Origin: a virus
Strand: one strand, 5' to 3'
Length of the DNA stretch: 54,653 nucleotides
IMG/VR virus record: IMGVR_UViG_3300042698_000041
Coordinates: 1 to 54,653 of that record
Made by a program: the position numbers and the translations under genes. The notes below the pieces were generated by a model. It was not told where the DNA came from. It worked only from the letters and a program-made list of their open reading frames with translations, and searched no databases. This document shows, piece by piece, positions 34,669 through 37,762 of the stretch; position 1 is the first letter of the stretch, and each line of letters opens with the position of its first letter.

Positions 34669-36261
34669 ATGACTAGGTTTAACAAGCGTCCATCGGGGCT
34701 TATCGTCGCGAACCAGCCAATCGTGTCGACCGCAAATCCCACGGCACGCACTGGCAACAGCGCCCCTGGGTTCACCCGCGATGCCGAAGGTGAGCTTTTC
34801 CTTCTGGCCGTGAGCAACTTCGTGGGCCAGGACATGCACTATGAGAAGGGTGTCGCTCGTGACGCCAGGTTCAAGAGCCTGGTCGCACAGGTGGCGGTGT
34901 CCAATCCCGAGTGGATGAATCGCTTCCTGCCTTGGCTTCGCAACGAGGCCAACATGCGGACCGCCTCCCTGGTGGCCGCTGTTGAGACCGTCCGGGCACA
35001 GCTCAAGGCACCAGGCGGTCCTATCACAGGATTCGGTCGAGCCCTGATCAACTCGGTGCTGACTCGTGCCGATGAGCCAGGTGAGATGCTCGGTTACTGG
35101 AAGGCGACGTATCCAGGCGAGCAAATCCCCAAGCCGATCAAGCGTGGCATCGCCGATGCTGTGGCACGCCTGTACACGGAGCGCAACACGCTCAAGTACG
35201 ACACGGCATCGCACGGATTCAGGTTCGGTGACGTGCTGGAACTAACCCACGCGGCACCGGACAAGGGATACCAACGGGCGCTGTTCAAGCACCTCATCGA
35301 CCGGCGCCATGGACGTGGCGGCACGTCCGAGTCGTATGTCGGACTGCCCATGATCATCGAGAACATGCGGGTCCGTTCGCAAGTCGATACCTTCGGCAAC
35401 CACGAGATCCTGCTGCGTTCCGACGTGCTCAAGGCCGCTGGGATGACCTGGGAGGATGCTCTGTCCCTGGCCGGAAACAAGCTGCCCAAGAACCAGCTGT
35501 GGGAAGCCCTGATCCCGAACATGGGGTACATGGCGCTGCTTCGCAACCTGCGCAACTTCGATGAGGCGGGGGTGTCGGACAAGACTGCCACCTGGGCCGG
35601 GGTGGAACTGGCAAGCCCGGAGAAGGTTGCCCACTCCCGGCAGCTGCCGATGCGGTTCCTGTCGGCCTTCCGCTCGGTGTCCAATGTTCGGTGGCACGTG
35701 GCACTGGAGCACGCACTTCAGGCGTCGTTGAACAACATCCCGGAGTTCAAGGGTCGCACGTTGATCCTGATCGACACCTCGGGGTCAATGTCAAGTCAGT
35801 TCGGCAAGGACACGCAGTTGTGTCTGTGGGACGCGGCTGCGATCTTCGGTTGTGCCTTGGCCCAGCGATGCGAAAGTGCCAATGTGGTCAGCTTCTCCAA
35901 CTTGACCAAGCCCTTCCCGCTTCCCCGGGGAGAGTCTTTGATCCTGTCGGTGGACCGTTTCCGCAAGGGATACTTTCTCAACGGCGGCACCGACACTGAA
36001 GGTGCCGTGCGGACCCACTTCCACGGTCACGATCGGGTCGTCATCCTTACCGATGAGCAGGCCAATCACCACAGTGCACTACATGTGGCGTCCAGTGTTC
36101 CTATCCACATCCCGGTGATCACGTTCAACCTTGCCGGGTATCGGGTGGGTCACGCGCCTTCTGGCACCCCGACCAGGATCACCATTGGTGGCCTGTCGGA
36201 TCAGGCGTTCAAGCTGCTCCCTGTGCTTGAGAGCCGCGCCAAGGGTCAGTGGCCGTTCTGA
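34669..36261 (+). CDS. rsr: Ro60/Rsr ortholog (TROVE domain + vWA domain)
   Basis: 530 aa. N-terminal FTRDAEGELFLLAVSNFVGQDMHYEKG and HEAT-like repeats. C-terminal vWA with MIDAS LILIDTSGSMS. Confidence 0.8.
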   Translation: MTRFNKRPSGLIVANQPIVSTANPTARTGNSAPGFTRDAEGELFLLAVSNFVGQDMHYEKGVARDARFKSLVAQVAVSNPEWMNRFLPWLRNEANMRTASLVAAVETVRAQLKAPGGPITGFGRALINSVLTRADEPGEMLGYWKATYPGEQIPKPIKRGIADAVARLYTERNTLKYDTASHGFRFGDVLELTHAAPDKGYQRALFKHLIDRRHGRGGTSESYVGLPMIIENMRVRSQVDTFGNHEILLRSDVLKAAGMTWEDALSLAGNKLPKNQLWEALIPNMGYMALLRNLRNFDEAGVSDKTATWAGVELASPEKVAHSRQLPMRFLSAFRSVSNVRWHVALEHALQASLNNIPEFKGRTLILIDTSGSMSSQFGKDTQLCLWDAAAIFGCALAQRCESANVVSFSNLTKPFPLPRGESLILSVDRFRKGYFLNGGTDTEGAVRTHFHGHDRVVILTDEQANHHSALHVASSVPIHIPVITFNLAGYRVGHAPSGTPTRITIGGLSDQAFKLLPVLESRAKGQWPF

Positions 36262-36413
36262 TGAGCCTGCGCGACATCTCTTTTTTCTTCTTCGGGGGCA
36301 TGTTCTTCGCCGGGATGGTGGGGCTGTCCCCTGAGGGGGAGAACTACTGGATGATCGGCTTGGGCCTTCTAGGATGTGCCCTATCGTTCATCTTCATCCG
36401 AAAAGATTCGTAG
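36261..36413 (+). CDS. small membrane protein
   Basis: Hand-translated 50-aa ORF (MSLRDISFFFFGGMFFAGMVG...). Start overlaps the rsr stop (TGATG). Confidence 0.45.
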   Translation: MSLRDISFFFFGGMFFAGMVGLSPEGENYWMIGLGLLGCALSFIFIRKDS

Positions 36414-36767
36414 ATGGAAATTTTGACCATCGTCCGCCTGTTCTGGTGGACACTCACAGGGCTGTCCCTCGGGATGGCCCTGTGTGGCGTAACGGACCGA
36501 AGCATGGCCCTGATGATCGGCGGAGGTGTGGGAACATGGTGGTTTGCCACGCTGTGCCTGCTGCCTGATCGAGTCTGGTATAAGAAAGAGAGGAAAGATG
36601 TCCACCCTTATCGGGATCGCCGTATCCCTGGCGGGCCTGTACTCCTTTTACAAGGGGGTAATGGGCAACCGGGATGGACTGGCAGCGCTGGGAGCTGGCC
36701 TGTTCTTCGCGGGCCTGTACGTGGCGCTCATGATGTGACCTTGGTTGAAAATTCAACCAAAAATTAG
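36414..36767 (+). CDS. membrane protein (3' extent doubtful)
   Basis: The first ~60 aa contain two TM helices. The tail is Gly/Pro/Arg-rich and fully overlaps 36598..36738. Confidence 0.3.
   Translation: MEILTIVRLFWWTLTGLSLGMALCGVTDRSMALMIGGGVGTWWFATLCLLPDRVWYKKERKDVHPYRDRRIPGGPVLLLQGGNGQPGWTGSAGSWPVLRGPVRGAHDVTLVENSTKN
36598..36738 (+). CDS. small membrane protein
   Basis: ATG after AGAGAGGAAAG. MSTLIGIAVSLAGLYSF...FFAGLYVALMM, two TM helices. Confidence 0.45.
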   Translation: MSTLIGIAVSLAGLYSFYKGVMGNRDGLAALGAGLFFAGLYVALMM

Positions 36768-36839
36768 ACTTGCCGTTCGTTCCATGTCGTGTCATGCTTT
36801 CCTTGTTGGTGCGACACAGTGCCAACAGGTTCGAGGAAG

Positions 36840-36919
36840 CCCCAGGTGCGCAAGACTTCGGCTACTTCAATAGTTCAAAAACCATTAGAAAAAACCGAGG
36901 TCAAACTTGTTCTCTGGGG
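36840..36919 (+). ncRNA. Y-RNA-like module 1
   Basis: Closing stem ccccag/ctgggg. 5' CAGGTGCG...TACTTC and 3' ACTTGTTCTCTG motifs. Upper stem gacttcgg/ccgaggtc. A/T-rich apical loop. Confidence 0.4.
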
Positions 36920-36996
36920 CTCCATCAAGCCTTTGTGAATTGAAAACTACATGATCATTGTTTCTCGGCGTGCTCATGGCACTGCCGTGAATTCCT

Positions 36997-37136
36997 GATG
37001 TCAGGTGCGAAGTCTTCGGATACTTCAAAGACAGAGTTGGATCTGATCCCCATGGACTGGGCCCGTACCCCAAACGGTACGGGCCACACAGCCAGAACCC
37101 AGGGTCCTTCCGATGACGACCATGTTCTCTGACGTC
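36997..37136 (+). ncRNA. Y-RNA-like module 2
   Basis: Closing stem gatgtcag/ctgacgtc. Same 5' and 3' motifs. Upper stem gtcttcgg/ccgatgac. Internal 10-bp hairpin ggcccgtacc/ggtacgggcc. Confidence 0.4.
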
Positions 37137-37143
37137 ACAAAAG

Positions 37144-37287
37144 TCTCACTGGTGCGTACTGTTACGGTTACTTCGCATTCGGAGCGAGAGGTTATAGGTT
37201 CGAATCCTATCTGGTCCACTAATCCTGGACCGGTAGCTCAACGGCAGAGCGCTAAAAACGGCCGTGACAACCTTGATCTCAGTGGGG
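37144..37287 (+). ncRNA. Y-RNA-like module 3 with permuted tRNA-like domain (YrlA-like)
   Basis: Closing stem tctcactg/cagtgggg. Order: T-arm atagg-TTCGAAT-cctat, closed acceptor-like hairpin ctggtcc/ggaccgg, then D-arm gctc-aacggca-gagc. Confidence 0.55.
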
Positions 37288-37302
37288 CCACAAGCAAAAT
37301 TA

Positions 37303-37414
37303 CCCTCAGGTGCGTTTGGATCGCTCGGTTACTTCGAATGGATCGAAAATTGCCTTGTAAGCGATAGCTGGGAGTTCGAATCTCCCTCTCCGAGCCCAGT
37401 TTGATCTCTGAGGG
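37303..37414 (+). ncRNA. Y-RNA-like module 4 with near-standard-order tRNA-like cloverleaf
   Basis: Closing stem ccctcag/ctgaggg. Inner stem gctcgg/ccgagc. D-like ttcg-aatggat-cgaa. Anticodon-like arm attgc-cttgtaa-gcgat. T-arm gggag-TTCGAAT-ctccc. Confidence 0.45.
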
Positions 37415-37484
37415 ACTTAACCTAAAATCCACCCCGTTCCGCTCGTCGGGCGGGGTCTAAAAAGCTGTTCTGCCAGGAACAGAA

Positions 37485-37629
37485 AGATCTCAGGTGCGAA
37501 GGTTACGGATACTTCCTGTCGCCAACAATCAGACAGGGTAGCTCAGCGGTAGAGCGTCGGCTTGAAAAGCCGAAGGTCGGGGGTTCGAATCCCCTCCCGT
37601 TTCCGTTGCCGCCTTGAACTCTGAGATCT
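37485..37629 (+). ncRNA. Y-RNA-like module 5 with tRNA-Phe-like domain whose acceptor stem is loop-closed
   Basis: 9-bp closing stem agatctcag/ctgagatct. Hairpin tcctgtc/gacaggg, then D-arm, anticodon arm tcggc-ttGAAaa-gccga and T-arm ggggg-TTCGAAT-cccct. Confidence 0.5.
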
Positions 37630-37636
37630 CCGGTTG

Positions 37637-37762
37637 CTTCAGGTGCGTAGAGTTTCGGGTACTTCGTCAACAACGATTGCAGGTTCGAGTCCTGTCCTGG
37701 CCACAAGAGGCCAGGCATGCCCCCTGGTAAGGGCAAATCCGAGATCACCTTGATCTCTGGAG
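37637..37762 (+). ncRNA. Y-RNA-like module 6 with permuted tRNA-like domain (YrlA-like)
   Basis: Closing stem cttcag/ctggag. T-arm gcagg-TTCGAGT-cctgt, closed hairpin cctggcc/ggccagg, D-arm gccc-cctggtaa-gggc, 3' CCTTGATCTCTG. Confidence 0.55.

What the first reader, a model, noticed from the sequence alone, without database searches (positions are those of the whole stretch)
34669..37762. Phage-encoded Ro60 (TROVE+vWA) followed by a tandem array of six Y-RNA-like modules
Seen in sequence: ORF 34669..36261 has a TROVE-like N-terminus and a vWA domain with a MIDAS DTSGSMS motif. About 580 bp downstream lie six consecutive units of 80-145 nt (36840-36919, 36997-37136, 37144-37287, 37303-37414, 37485-37629, 37637-37762). 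Each unit opens with C(A/T)GGTGCG, then 12-14 nt, then TACTTC. Each closes with (C/A)(C/T/A)TG(A/T)(T/A)CTC(T/A)G. The flanks are mutually complementary over 6-9 bp, for example agatctcag/ctgagatct. Inside the closing stem, 5' GGUGCGA can pair with 3' CUUGAUC as G-C, G-U, U-A, a bulged G, then C-G, G-U, A-U. A second stem (GUCUUCGG-like with CCGAUGAC-like) follows. Established knowledge: Ro60 binds Y RNAs through a conserved bulged helix formed by the RNA 5' and 3' ends (metazoan 5' GGUCCGA with 3' CUUGAC). Bacterial rsr genes are flanked by Y RNAs (YrlA) that carry a tRNA-like domain, and Ro orthologs occur in some large mycobacteriophages. Inference: this is a phage Ro-Y RNP system. Six tandem, structurally diversified Y-like RNAs in a ~55-kb siphovirus-type genome would be an unusual expansion.
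Basis: partly seen in the sequence, partly recalled or inferred. Interest (0 to 1): 0.85.

Follow-up and report, generated by a model that had tools for sequence, protein, structure and literature searches.

The report
Phage Ro60 gene with six Y-RNAs
This phage carries a gene for the RNA-binding ring protein Ro60 followed by six tandem genes for its likely partner "Y RNAs", and the same kind of unannotated array (2-10 copies) sits next to Ro60 in about 40 related phage and bacterial sequences.

Summary

- **Protein:** ORF 34669-36261 is a Ro60/TROVE+vWA protein.
- **RNA modules:** Six units lie 579 nt downstream on the same strand. Each has a covarying closing stem. Next comes a motif conserved on both strands: GGUGCG on the 5' side and CUUGAWCU on the 3' side. 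A second covarying stem ending CGG/CCG follows, then UACUUC, then a variable domain.
- **Significance in the window:** The compound motif occurs six times against 0.04 expected. A covariance model finds exactly these six (57-92 bits; next best hit 13.7 bits).
- **Module types:** M3 and M6 carry a YrlA-type permuted tRNA-like domain. M4 and M5 carry tRNA-like domains in normal order. M1 and M2 have none.
- **Relatives:** The family recurs as arrays of 2-10 modules beside Ro60 in about 40 related loci, including Gordonia phages Neville and VanLee and Streptomyces phage GiJojo. There they are unannotated or called small ORFs or tRNAs.
- **Link to Ro60:** Loci found from the RNA motif alone with at least two copies carry Ro60 in 10 of 11 cases. 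Single-copy loci do so in 1 of 109.

Rfam's YrlA model misses all of them at its threshold. Six copies is therefore not unusual in this clade. The clade-wide arrays are a new variant of the known bacterial and phage Ro60-Y RNA system. Expression and Ro60 binding remain untested.

The parts
34669..36261 (+). Ro60 (TROVE + vWA/MIDAS) gene
   Evidence: Pfam TROVE 6.2e-19 (68.9 bits against a cut-off of 23). vWA_Ro60 is weak at 16.1 bits. PHROG 850 RNA-binding protein 1.3e-46. PDB 9KOP/9L5Y phiLo Ro60 1.5e-21, with DTSGS aligned to the MIDAS motif. 41-46% identity to 'Ro-like RNA binding protein' of Gordonia, Streptomyces and Arthrobacter phages.
36261..36738 (+). Two or three small hydrophobic ORFs between Ro60 and the array (36261-36413, 36414-?, 36598-36738). 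The first overlaps the Ro60 stop codon (TGATG).
   Evidence: ORF list and sequence. GC3 periodicity is present up to about 36700. No Pfam family matched. These are context, not shown to be part of the system.
36838..36921 (+). Module M1: short Y-like RNA (84 nt) with no tRNA-like domain, comparable to YrlB
   Evidence: Motif. 8-bp closing stem. Fold. Model R1 63.6 bits, E 7e-17. A weaker extended pairing 36827-36845/36914-36932 is also possible.
36996..37137 (+). Module M2: Y-like RNA (142 nt). Its effector domain is a branched, non-tRNA structure containing a perfect 10-bp hairpin at 37060-37085.
   Evidence: (I20). R1 64.3 bits. The 5' motif is GGUGCGAAG.
37143..37288 (+). Module M3: YrlA-type Y RNA (146 nt). 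Order is V hairpin, T arm (AUAGG-UUCGAAU-CCUAU), closed acceptor-like hairpin, UA, then D arm (GCUC-AACGGCA-GAGC).
   Evidence: Rfam YrlA at 37161-37271, 31.9 bits, E 2.3e-4, below the gathering score of 69. Fold. R1 91.9 bits. Similar to L007 9025-9111 and L019 5574-5659.
37303..37414 (+). Module M4: Y-like RNA (112 nt). It has a tRNA-like domain in normal order, with stem 2 in the place of the acceptor stem and a T arm GGGAG-UUCGAAU-CUCCC.
   Evidence: Rfam tRNA 28.4 bits at 37325-37394, just under the gathering score of 29.. R1 57.0 bits.
37485..37629 (+). Module M5: Y-like RNA (145 nt) enclosing a complete tRNA-Phe(GAA)-like domain (37531-37604) in normal D-anticodon-T order
   Evidence: Rfam tRNA 61.7 bits with two acceptor-stem mismatches. 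ARAGORN calls tRNA-Phe. R1 73.8 bits. Orthologue in L011 5314-5445, 76% identity over 134 nt. That orthologue has a 6-nt 'anticodon' loop. Compensatory changes support an upstream hairpin (CCUGUC/GACAGG against CCCCCU/AGGGGG) rather than an acceptor stem (sequences).
37637..37762 (+). Module M6: YrlA-type variant (126 nt). Order is T arm (GCAGG-UUCGAGU-CCUGU), closed hairpin CCUGGCC/GGCCAGG, then a divergent D-like arm GCCC/GGGC.
   Evidence: Rfam YrlA partial match, 18.2 bits, E 2.2.. R1 77.4 bits.
37415..37484 (+). Spacer between M4 and M5 with two hairpins (CCCCGxxCGGGG-type and CUGUUC/GAACAG). It may divide the array into two units.
   Evidence: Fold. No consensus terminator was called on the + strand. 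Function is inferred only.

Best explanation
This is a phage-encoded Ro60-Y RNA system: one Ro60 gene and six tandem, same-strand genes for Y-like RNAs.

**Shared architecture of each RNA**
- The 5' and 3' ends pair to form stem 1 (6-9 bp).
- Next comes a motif conserved on both strands: GGUGCG(A/N)(A)G on the 5' side and CUUGAWCU on the 3' side.
- This motif sits where vertebrate Y RNAs carry GGUCCGA and bacterial YrlA/YrlB carry GNCGAAN0-1G. It is the likely Ro60 binding site.
- Stem 2 follows, ending in CGG/CCG, and then a conserved UACUUC junction.
- A variable 'effector' domain completes each module.

**Effector domains**
- M3 and M6: permuted tRNA-like domain of the YrlA type.
- M4 and M5: tRNA-like domain in normal order.
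- M1 and M2: no tRNA-like domain.

**Inferred mechanism**
- The array is transcribed with, or just after, Ro60 and upstream of the phage tRNA cluster. It is cut at short A/C-rich spacers into 84-146-nt RNAs.
- Each RNA docks on the outer face of the Ro60 ring through the conserved motif.
- Its effector domain either tethers Ro60 to a host partner or gates access to the Ro60 cavity. Known partners are PNPase in Deinococcus, Salmonella and, in vitro, phage phiLo. The tRNA-like modules may instead recruit enzymes that bind the tRNA elbow.
- The outcome would be redirected host RNA decay or RNA quality control during infection.

**Shown and inferred**
- Shown here: the protein family, the RNA architecture, covariation in both stems, the genomic linkage to Ro60, and the spread across relatives.
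- Inferred: expression, processing, Ro60 binding, and the identity of partners.
For: 1. **Protein.** The ORF is a Ro60 protein.
2. **Non-random motif.** The compound motif occurs six times against 0.04 expected, all on the Ro60 strand.
3. **Stems in the window.** With ends fixed by motifs only, 6 of 6 modules have 6-9 consecutive closing pairs. Controls average 0.7.
4. **Covariation, trimmed alignment.** 43 modules from 14 loci were trimmed to their conserved 5' and 3' ends.
   - Stem 1 is 88.6% paired, with compensatory changes at 8 of 9 pairs.
   - Stem 2 is about 78% paired.
   - The covariation score is 0.631, against 0.10-0.17 for slid partners and 0 of 500 shuffles.
5. **Covariation, unfitted alignment.** RNAalifold on a MAFFT alignment of full-length modules, not fitted to any structure, recovers both stems. 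13 of 15 pairs show double changes.
6. **Covariance model R1.** It finds exactly the six modules in the window (57-92 bits; next best 13.7). In 42 other loci it gives 152 hits at E<=0.01, about 145 of them full-length. These lie in arrays of 2-10 beside Ro60, on its strand wherever the Ro60 position and strand were determined (L001-L029, L150, L151).
7. **Reverse test.** I scanned IMG/VR with the RNA motif alone. Loci with at least two copies have a Ro60 homologue in 10 of 11 cases, against 1 of 109 for single-copy loci.
8. **Motif follows the protein.**
   - The motif variant is nearly uniform within each array even though stems and effector domains differ (window 6 of 6, L004 8 of 8, L151 7 of 7). 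A few arrays mix two variants.
   - The variant tracks the Ro60 tree.
   - One clade uses GGUCCGACGCC, which contains the vertebrate Ro60 contact sequence GGUCCGA cited in PMC4201824.
9. **Known family features.**
   - M3 aligns to Rfam YrlA through the T arm, acceptor-like hairpin and D arm (E 2e-4).
   - It has the UA linker between the acceptor-like hairpin and the D arm described for YrlA (bioRxiv 10.1101/312249).
10. **Precedent.**
   - YrlA-like RNAs within 4 kb of Ro60 on the same strand were reported in 254 bacteria and 22 phages (PMC4201824).
   - phiLo Ro60 binds two adjacent Yrl RNAs and host PNPase in vitro (PMC12135203).
Against: - No expression, processing or binding data exist for this phage or its relatives.
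- Rfam's YrlA model does not reach its gathering score for any module, here or in 10 related loci. Rfam's metazoan Y_RNA model gives no hit even at E<=10.
- The proposed bulged helix has no covariation, so a Ro60 site is argued from conservation and position only.
- The match between motif variant and Ro60 tree could reflect shared descent alone.
- The 43 modules used for pair counts were chosen partly by their pairing, which inflates the paired percentages. The motif-only test, the RNAalifold result and the slid controls offset this only in part.
- G-U pairs (56) outnumber A-C cells (35) only modestly, so pairing alone does not prove which strand is transcribed.
- No promoter or terminator was identified.
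Confidence: 0.85

Rival explanations
1. The units are part of the phage tRNA cluster: tRNA genes, or degenerate tRNA-derived repeats, with complementary leader and trailer sequences used for processing. On this view they have no functional tie to Ro60. M5 in particular would be a real tRNA-Phe(GAA).
For: - M5 scores 61.7 bits with Rfam tRNA, and ARAGORN calls it tRNA-Phe.
- M4 scores 28.4 bits.
- Genuine tRNA genes are interleaved with modules in relatives, at L011 5220-5292, L002 8588-8658 and L007 8533-8606.
- The window has many tRNA and tRNA-like genes just downstream.
Against: - M1 and M2 have no tRNA-like domain, yet share the same two stems and conserved motifs.
- M3 and M6 are circularly permuted (T arm before D arm) with a closed acceptor-like hairpin, so they cannot be charged.
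- M5's acceptor stem has two mismatches plus a G-U pair.
- M5's orthologue in L011 has a 6-nt anticodon loop. The compensatory changes there favour a different hairpin.
- Multi-copy arrays of the non-tRNA motif occur almost only beside Ro60: 10 of 11 against 1 of 109.
Confidence: 0.06
2. The units are cis-acting RNA structures in a long Ro60-tRNA transcript, such as nuclease processing sites, stabilisers or terminators/insulators. On this view they are not free-standing trans-acting RNAs.
For: - The modules are tightly packed, with spacers of 7-15 nt for M2-M3, M3-M4 and M5-M6.
- A recurring A/C-rich spacer (ACAACUUC-like) appears in many loci.
- No promoters or terminators were detected between the units.
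Against: - Simple processing hairpins would not need a motif conserved on both strands that is near-uniform within a genome and follows the Ro60 lineage.
- Nor would they need elaborate tRNA-elbow mimics of the YrlA type.
- Known bacterial Y RNAs are themselves cut out of rsr operon transcripts. Co-transcription therefore does not separate this rival from the main reading (my own knowledge of the Salmonella rsr-yrlBA-rtcBA operon; PMC7790460 is in the library but I did not read it for this point).
Confidence: 0.06
3. The units act at the DNA level, as repeats such as iterons, recombination sites or small mobile elements, and any RNA structure is incidental.
For: Each unit is flanked by inverted repeats, and the units form a tandem, direct array.
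Against: - The flanking repeats differ in sequence between units but keep their complementarity, including G-U pairs: 11 G-U against 3 A-C cells in the six window modules.
- The T-loop and D-loop motifs are strand-specific.
- Orientation relative to Ro60 is fixed wherever it was determined, although the array can lie upstream or downstream of the gene.
- There are no target-site duplications, and no copies occur elsewhere in the window.
Confidence: 0.02

Closest known systems
Bacterial YrlA and YrlB (Salmonella Typhimurium, Mycobacterium smegmatis; Rfam RF02553; Chen et al. 2014, PMC4201824)
   Same: - Both are encoded within 4 kb of Ro60 on the same strand.
- The 5' and 3' ends pair, and a conserved 5'-strand motif sits next to the terminal stem.
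- M3 and M6 have the circularly permuted tRNA-like module: T arm, closed acceptor-like hairpin, UA, then D arm.
- Short modules without a tRNA-like domain (M1) parallel YrlB.
   Different: - No module reaches the Rfam gathering score. The best is 31.9 bits against 69.
- The motif is GGUGCG(N)AG, not GNCGAAN0-1G.
- A matching 3'-strand motif is also conserved. Chen et al. report that only the 5' strand is recognisable in Salmonella and M. smegmatis.
- A conserved UACUUC junction is present.
- There are six paralogues per locus (2-10 in relatives) against the two characterised in each of those bacteria.
- M4 and M5 carry tRNA-like domains in normal order.
Deinococcus radiodurans Yrn1/Yrn2 and the cluster of four small RNAs upstream of rsr
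   Same: - Several small RNAs lie next to rsr.
- Both strands of the Ro60-binding helix are retained.
- Yrn1 has its D-like and T-like arms in the opposite order to YrlA (PMC4201824). M5 may be comparable, but I did not compare them directly.
   Different: - It is cellular, not phage.
- No sequence similarity was detected.
- Only some of the four Deinococcus RNAs bind Rsr strongly.
- They do not form a uniform tandem array sharing one motif.
Thermus phage phiLo Ro60 with Yrl1 and Yrl2 (PMC12135203; PDB 9KOP, 9L5Y)
   Same: - A phage Ro60 has adjacent Y-like RNA genes.
- The protein is homologous over its full length (E 1.5e-21).
- It gives experimental precedent for a phage Ro60 binding its neighbouring RNAs and forming complexes with host PNPase.
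   Different: - phiLo has two RNAs upstream of the gene. They were defined by a CGAA motif and are not described as tRNA-like.
- Here there are six RNAs downstream, four of them with tRNA-like domains.
- Protein identity is about 26%.
- phiLo has a 178-kb genome; this window is about 55 kb.
Mycobacteriophage YrlA-like RNAs (e.g. phage ET08; 22 phages in Chen et al. 2014)
   Same: An actinobacteriophage Ro60 gene with a neighbouring YrlA-like RNA, in genomes rich in tRNA genes.
   Different: - Those RNAs were found with the YrlA model. 355 RNAs were reported over 276 genomes, or about 1.3 per genome.
- The clade found here escapes that model and carries multi-module arrays.
- The mycobacteriophage Ro proteins were not among the listed tblastn relatives of this Ro60.
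Metazoan Y RNAs (Rfam RF00019)
   Same: - A terminal stem formed by the two RNA ends.
- A conserved Ro60 site on both strands next to that stem. GGUGCGA differs by one base from GGUCCGA, and the sister clade L003/L151 has GGUCCGA itself.
- A variable effector loop.
- Several paralogues per genome.
   Different: - No Rfam Y_RNA match even at E<=10.
- tRNA-like effector domains are present.
- The genes are arranged as an operon-like tandem array rather than as separate Pol III genes.

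Membership tests
Ro60 / TROVE protein family | TROVE (HEAT-repeat ring) domain above the curated threshold | tested here: met
   PF05731 at 68.9 bits against a cut-off of 23, E 6.2e-19. PHROG 850 covers residues 25-518, E 1.3e-46.
Ro60 / TROVE protein family | C-terminal vWA domain with a MIDAS DxSxS motif | tested here: inconclusive
   Pfam vWA_Ro60 scores 16.1 bits and VWA_2 15.9 bits, both below their cut-offs. However, LIDTSGSM aligns to LVDVSGSM of the solved phiLo Ro60 vWA domain, in an alignment covering residues 258-524.
Ro60 / TROVE protein family | Closed-ring fold that binds Y RNA on its outer surface | not tested
   I did not run a structure prediction. RNA binding cannot be tested with these tools.
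YrlA (Rfam RF02553) | Score at or above the Rfam gathering threshold (69 bits) | tested here: not met
   M3 scores 31.9 bits (E 2.3e-4) and M6 18.2 bits. The other modules have no hit. No YrlA hit at the gathering score in 10 related loci.
YrlA (Rfam RF02553) | Encoded within about 4 kb of Ro60 and on the same strand | tested here: met
   The modules lie 577-1,501 nt downstream of the Ro60 stop codon, on the + strand. The same holds in the related loci where the Ro60 position and strand were determined.
YrlA (Rfam RF02553) | 5' motif GNCGAAN0-1G next to the helix formed by the RNA ends | tested here: inconclusive
   All six modules have GGUGCG at that position. M2 and M5 read GCGAAG. The others read GCGCAA, GCGUAC, GCGUUU and GCGUAG. 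This resembles the published motif but does not fit it exactly.
YrlA (Rfam RF02553) | Permuted tRNA-like module: T arm, closed acceptor-like hairpin, UA, D arm, with the Y stem in place of the anticodon stem | tested here: met
   Met for M3. Met for M6 with a divergent D arm and a CA linker. Not met for M1 and M2, which have no tRNA-like domain. Not met for M4 and M5, which have the normal order.
YrlA (Rfam RF02553) | Binds Ro60/Rsr; modified by TruB and DusA | not testable with these tools
   This needs immunoprecipitation and modification mapping.
Metazoan Y RNA (Rfam RF00019) | Match to the covariance model | tested here: not met
   No Y_RNA hit at E<=10 in 36600-39400.
Metazoan Y RNA (Rfam RF00019) | Conserved bulged helix (GGUCCGA paired with 3' residues) next to the terminal stem | tested here: inconclusive
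   Both strands are conserved in sequence. The proposed pairs form in 61% of cells, with no covariation above shuffles.
tRNA (for M5, 37531-37604) | Cloverleaf match above the Rfam gathering score | tested here: met
   61.7 bits against 29. ARAGORN calls tRNA-Phe(GAA).
tRNA (for M5, 37531-37604) | Intact 7-bp acceptor stem, and a decoding anticodon loop conserved in orthologues | tested here: not met
   Two mismatches plus a G-U pair in the acceptor stem. The L011 orthologue has an abnormal anticodon loop, and ARAGORN reports 'tRNA-???'. Compensatory changes support an alternative hairpin.

The most novel reading that the evidence does not exclude
One phage Ro60 ring may be programmed by a genome-encoded set of up to ten interchangeable Y-RNA adaptors. 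All would share the same Ro60 docking site, and each would present a different effector domain: a permuted tRNA mimic, a normal-order tRNA mimic, or a non-tRNA hairpin. A single protein could then be directed to several host RNA enzymes at once, such as PNPase and other exonucleases, RNase P or Z, and enzymes that bind the tRNA elbow. Alternatively, the tRNA-like modules could act as Ro60-protected decoys against host nucleases that target tRNAs. That would make these arrays a modular system for taking over host RNA metabolism or for counter-defence, not just a phage copy of the bacterial stress RNP.
Probability: 0.25. Interest if true: 0.8.

Novelty: new variant of a known kind. Interest (0 to 1): 0.6.

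Why it matters
Ro60-Y RNA particles are conserved from bacteria to humans, where Ro60 is a lupus autoantigen. What Y RNAs recruit is still poorly understood.

- **A large unannotated family.** About 150 modules in some 40 phage and bacterial loci share one docking motif but carry diverse effector domains. This forms a natural comparative panel for asking what the effector domains bind.
- **Culturable systems.** The family occurs in Gordonia phages Neville and VanLee and in Streptomyces phage GiJojo, so the questions can be tested directly.
- **Annotation errors.**
  - Rfam's YrlA model misses the family.
  - Several GenBank records overlap these RNAs with small 'hypothetical protein' genes.
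  - Other GenBank records label them as tRNA-Arg genes.
- **Evolutionary link.** The both-strand motif is close to the vertebrate Ro60 site, and identical to it in one clade. This ties phage, bacterial and animal Y RNAs together more tightly than YrlA did.

Tried and rejected
- **Rfam at gathering thresholds.** In the window and in 10 related loci it reports no Y-RNA family match: the window gives only tRNAs, and the related loci give tRNAs plus one tmRNA-like and one abiF RNA hit. The YrlA family assignment cannot rest on Rfam.
- **Near-identical phage search.** Megablast of the locus against 50,697 phage records gave no match, so this is not a known phage. The large terminase is at most 37% identical to those of Arthrobacter, Gordonia and Microbacterium phages.
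- **Duplex-energy z-scores.** Scoring the 5' element against downstream sequence did not separate real modules from chance. I replaced this with an explicit two-stem search.
- **A model from trimmed modules.** I considered building a covariance model from modules trimmed to their conserved ends. I dropped it because long inserts would probably exceed the model's maximum hit length. I used full-length modules instead.
- **Bulged-helix pairing.** I tested it in two registers and found no covariation.
- **More modules or a known RNA downstream.** I searched 37763-39326 and 39400-46700. There were no hits from model R1 or Rfam YrlA, no significant fold z-scores, and no similarity to related loci.
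- **Promoter and terminator scan.** It was uninformative.
- **RNA-repair partners nearby.** I looked for genes such as RtcB or PNPase and found none. The neighbours are a vWA protein, an exonuclease and a primase.
- **Mycobacteriophage link.** I checked whether contig L021 (154 kb) is a cluster C mycobacteriophage relative. There was no nucleotide match, and no mycobacteriophage among the listed protein hits.
- **Literature.** The supplementary tables of Chen et al. 2014 and the 2020 Annual Review on bacterial Ro60 were not available. I therefore could not check the published number of Y RNAs per phage directly.

Full report
**1. What is in the sequence**

The ORF at 34669-36261 (+) encodes a 530-residue protein.
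- It matches Pfam TROVE above threshold (68.9 bits, E 6e-19).
- It matches PHROG 850 'RNA-binding protein' across residues 25-518 (E 1e-46).
- It matches the solved Ro60 of Thermus phage phiLo (9KOP/9L5Y, E 1.5e-21). Its LIDTSGSM segment aligns there to the MIDAS segment LVDVSGSM.
- By tblastn it is 41-46% identical to proteins annotated 'Ro-like RNA binding protein' in Gordonia, Streptomyces and Arthrobacter phages.
- The Pfam vWA models themselves score below their cut-offs.

Two or three small hydrophobic ORFs follow. The first overlaps the Ro60 stop codon (TGATG). From about 36740 to 39400 the sequence loses the third-position GC bias seen in genes, so it is probably non-coding.

**2. The six modules are real**

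- The compound motif GGTGCG-N10-18-TACTTC occurs six times in the window. All six lie on the + strand between 36845 and 37665, against 0.04 expected.
- I fixed the 5' ends by that motif and the 3' ends by [CT][AT]TG[AT][AT]CTC alone. All six units then show 6-9 consecutive pairs running outward from an invariant G-C pair. Shifted controls average 0.7 pairs.
- The paired sequences differ between modules: CCCCAG/CUGGGG, GAUGUCAG/CUGACGUC, CUCACUG/CAGUGGG, CCCUCAG/CUGAGGG, AGAUCUCAG/CUGAGAUCU and CUUCAG/CUGGAG.
- Each module folds into the same order of elements:
  1. stem 1;
  2. the conserved GGUGCG/CUUGAWCU region;
  3. stem 2, 6-9 bp ending CGG/CCG;
  4. UACUUC;
  5. a variable domain.

The motif spacing is 11-15 nt, not 12-14.

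**3. The variable domains differ**

| Module | Length | Variable domain | Evidence |
|---|---|---|---|
| M1 | 84 nt | Small hairpin only | |
| M2 | 142 nt | Branched, non-tRNA, with a perfect 10-bp hairpin | |
| M3 | 146 nt | T arm with UUCGAAU loop, closed 8-bp hairpin, UA, then D arm GCUC-AACGGCA-GAGC | Rfam YrlA full-length alignment, 31.9 bits, E 2e-4, below the gathering score of 69 |
| M4 | 112 nt | tRNA-like in normal order, with stem 2 as the acceptor stem | Rfam tRNA 28.4 bits |
| M5 | 145 nt | Complete tRNA-Phe(GAA)-like cloverleaf | Rfam tRNA 61.7 bits; ARAGORN tRNA-Phe |
| M6 | 126 nt | Same order as M3, with a divergent D arm | Rfam YrlA partial, 18.2 bits |

M3's layout is the circularly permuted tRNA mimic described for YrlA (PMC4201824; bioRxiv 10.1101/312249).

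M5 is unlikely to decode.
- Its acceptor stem has two mismatches.
- Its orthologue in L011 (76% identity over 134 nt) has an abnormal anticodon loop.
- The base changes between the two orthologues are compensated in an upstream hairpin (CCUGUC/GACAGG against CCCCCU/AGGGGG), not in the acceptor stem (sequences).

**4. Comparative evidence**

*Starting from the protein.* A Ro60-based scan of IMG/VR gave 26 loci. I added Gordonia phages VanLee and Neville and Streptomyces phage GiJojo. Two bacterial genome contigs followed. The same 5' motif, with variants, occurs in clusters next to Ro60 in most of them.

*Covariation.*
- I collected 43 modules with an explicit two-stem search and trimmed them to their conserved ends.
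- Stem 1 is 88.6% paired with double changes at 8 of 9 pairs, and stem 2 is about 78% paired.
- The covariation score is 0.631, against 0.10-0.17 for partners slid by 1-3 columns and 0 of 500 shuffles.
- Those modules were chosen partly by pairing. As a check I aligned full-length modules with MAFFT and ran RNAalifold. It recovered both stems on its own, with double changes at 13 of 15 pairs.

*Covariance model.*
- Model R1, built from the full-length alignment, finds exactly six hits in the window (57-92 bits, E 1e-15 to 1e-25). The next best hit is 13.7 bits.
- In 42 other loci it gives 152 hits at E<=0.01, about 145 of them full-length. These cluster beside Ro60, on its strand wherever its position and strand were determined.
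- The array lies upstream of Ro60 in some lineages and downstream in others.

| Locus | Modules |
|---|---|
| L002 | 10 |
| L004 | 7 |
| L020, L122 | 6 each |
| L001, L007, L011, L021, L078, L135 | 5 each |
| Gordonia phage Neville | 4 |
| Streptomyces phage GiJojo | 4-5 |
| Gordonia phage VanLee | 2 |
| Marinactinospora rubrisoli chromosome | 2 |

*Starting from the RNA.* I scanned IMG/VR with the RNA motif alone.
- 11 of the fetched loci had at least two copies. Ten of these contain a Ro60 homologue. The eleventh has its copies at the very end of the fetched stretch.
- Only 1 of 109 single-copy loci contains a Ro60 homologue.

**5. The likely Ro60 site**

- The conserved region sits where vertebrate Y RNAs carry GGUCCGA, which Xenopus Ro60 contacts. 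It is also where YrlA and YrlB carry GNCGAAN0-1G (PMC4201824).
- GGUGCGA differs from the vertebrate motif by one base.
- Unlike the Salmonella and M. smegmatis RNAs, a 3'-strand partner (CUUGAWCU) is also conserved.
The region is constrained in sequence, as expected for a protein contact site.
- The motif comes in lineage variants:

| 5' motif | 3' motif | Loci |
|---|---|---|
| GGUGCG | CUUGAWCU | window, L001, L002 and others |
| GGUGUG | CUGGUUCU | L004, L007 |
| GAUGCG | xAGUUCx | Neville, GiJojo, L005-L010 |
| GGUCCGACGCC | not determined | L003, L151 |

- In most genomes all modules share one variant even though their stems and effector domains differ. A few arrays mix two variants. The variants follow the Ro60 tree.
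- That pattern fits a shared, genome-encoded binding partner. I cannot separate it from shared descent.

**6. Mechanism: shown and inferred**

Shown here are the protein family, the RNA architecture, the stem covariation, the genomic linkage and the spread across relatives.

The rest is inferred from established Ro60 biology.
- Y RNAs dock on the outer face of the Ro60 ring. They tether it to PNPase or block access to its cavity.
- phiLo Ro60 binds its neighbouring Yrl RNAs and host PNPase in vitro (PMC12135203).
- YrlA is handled by tRNA enzymes (PMC4201824).

From this I infer that the array is transcribed with, or after, Ro60 and cut at short spacers. These are 7-15 nt between M2-M3, M3-M4 and M5-M6, and many loci have an ACAACUUC-like spacer. 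The six RNAs would give one Ro60 protein different partners or different gating. In relatives the arrays are embedded in, or next to, phage tRNA clusters, with real tRNA genes interleaved. This suggests shared processing and a role connected to tRNA or structured-RNA metabolism during infection. No promoter or terminator could be assigned.

**7. Rival readings**

- **tRNA genes or tRNA relics.** This fits M5's score. It fails for M1 and M2, for the permuted M3 and M6, and for the Ro60 linkage.
- **Purely cis-acting processing structures.** These would not need a lineage-matched conserved motif or tRNA-elbow mimics.
- **DNA-level repeats.** This conflicts with the compensatory changes and the strand-specific tRNA motifs. 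It also conflicts with the absence of copies elsewhere in the window.

**8. Novelty**

Phage Ro60 and phage Y RNAs are already known. YrlA-like RNAs were reported in 22 phages (PMC4201824), and phiLo has Yrl1 and Yrl2 (PMC12135203). Several things appear to be undescribed in the library I could search:
- a large actinophage-centred clade in which Ro60 is accompanied by arrays of 2-10 Y-like modules;
- modules that share a docking motif conserved on both strands;
- mixtures of permuted, normal-order and non-tRNA effector domains within one array;
- modules that Rfam does not detect at its threshold.

GenBank records place other features over these RNAs.
- Neville genes 88-90 overlap modules.
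- GiJojo tRNA-Arg(cct) and VanLee tRNA-Arg(tct) overlap modules.

Six modules in this window is typical to high for the clade, not exceptional. I could not read the supplementary tables of Chen et al. 2014 or the 2020 review, so earlier mention of multi-copy phage arrays cannot be fully excluded.

**9. Verdict**

The 'unusual expansion' claim should be restated as a clade-wide feature. I rate it a new variant of a known kind, interest 0.6.

Noticed in passing
window 37763-38650 and 38730-39326: About 1.5 kb between the Y-RNA array and the tRNA cluster lacks the third-position GC bias seen in genes. It has no Rfam hit, no similarity to related loci, no Pfam match for its ORFs and no unusual fold stability. 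Its function is unknown.
   Followed up: partly
window 39327-39402, 40006-40078, 42162-42233, 44153-44236; also T-arm-like elements near 41524 and 42446: Several tRNA-like genes have defective or odd anticodon arms: a 6-nt loop, a 4-nt loop, 'Phe(AAA)', and one 84-nt form. Two of them share the acceptor start GCCCCCGUAGCU, and a third starts ACCCCCGUAGCU. They look unable to decode. Model R1 does not hit them.
   Followed up: partly
window 40291-41403 (+): A second vWA-domain protein (PHROG 26613, unknown function; weak Pfam VWA_2 and VWA matches) lies inside the tRNA cluster, downstream of Ro60.
   Followed up: no
window 36261-36738 (+): Two or three small hydrophobic ORFs follow Ro60, and the first overlaps its stop codon (TGATG). 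Gordonia phage Neville also has a small 'membrane protein' gene directly after Ro60.
   Followed up: no
L028 3364-3774 (Neville genes 88-90); L029 3769-3843 (GiJojo tRNA-Arg cct); L027 3704-3775 (VanLee tRNA-Arg tct): Annotated small hypothetical-protein genes and tRNA-Arg genes in GenBank records overlap Y-like modules found by model R1. These annotations are probably wrong.
   Followed up: partly
Inter-module spacers, e.g. L001 5023-5035, L002 8779-8790, L008 5489-5500, L011 5449-5472; window 37138-37142 and 37289-37302: A recurring A/C-rich spacer (ACAACUUC, CACAAAC or CACAAG) lies directly 3' of many modules. It may be a processing site or a single-stranded 3' tail.
   Followed up: no
L151 3380-4160 and L003 (upstream of Ro60): A sister clade has 6-7 modules whose 5' motif is GGUCCGACGCC instead of GGUGCG. 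This contains the exact vertebrate Ro60 contact sequence GGUCCGA. Model R1 detects only 3 of the 7 in L151.
   Followed up: partly
L018 13093-13129; L005 11111-11191: Related phage contigs carry an abiF RNA match (RF03085, 51 bits) and a short tmRNA-model match within their tRNA clusters.
   Followed up: no
window 36740-36836: The strongly structured leader before M1 has a fold z-score of -5.5. It contains two hairpins, an extra GGTGCG at 36808 and a T-loop-like GGUUCGAGG. M1's closing stem could extend to 36827-36845/36914-36932.
   Followed up: partly
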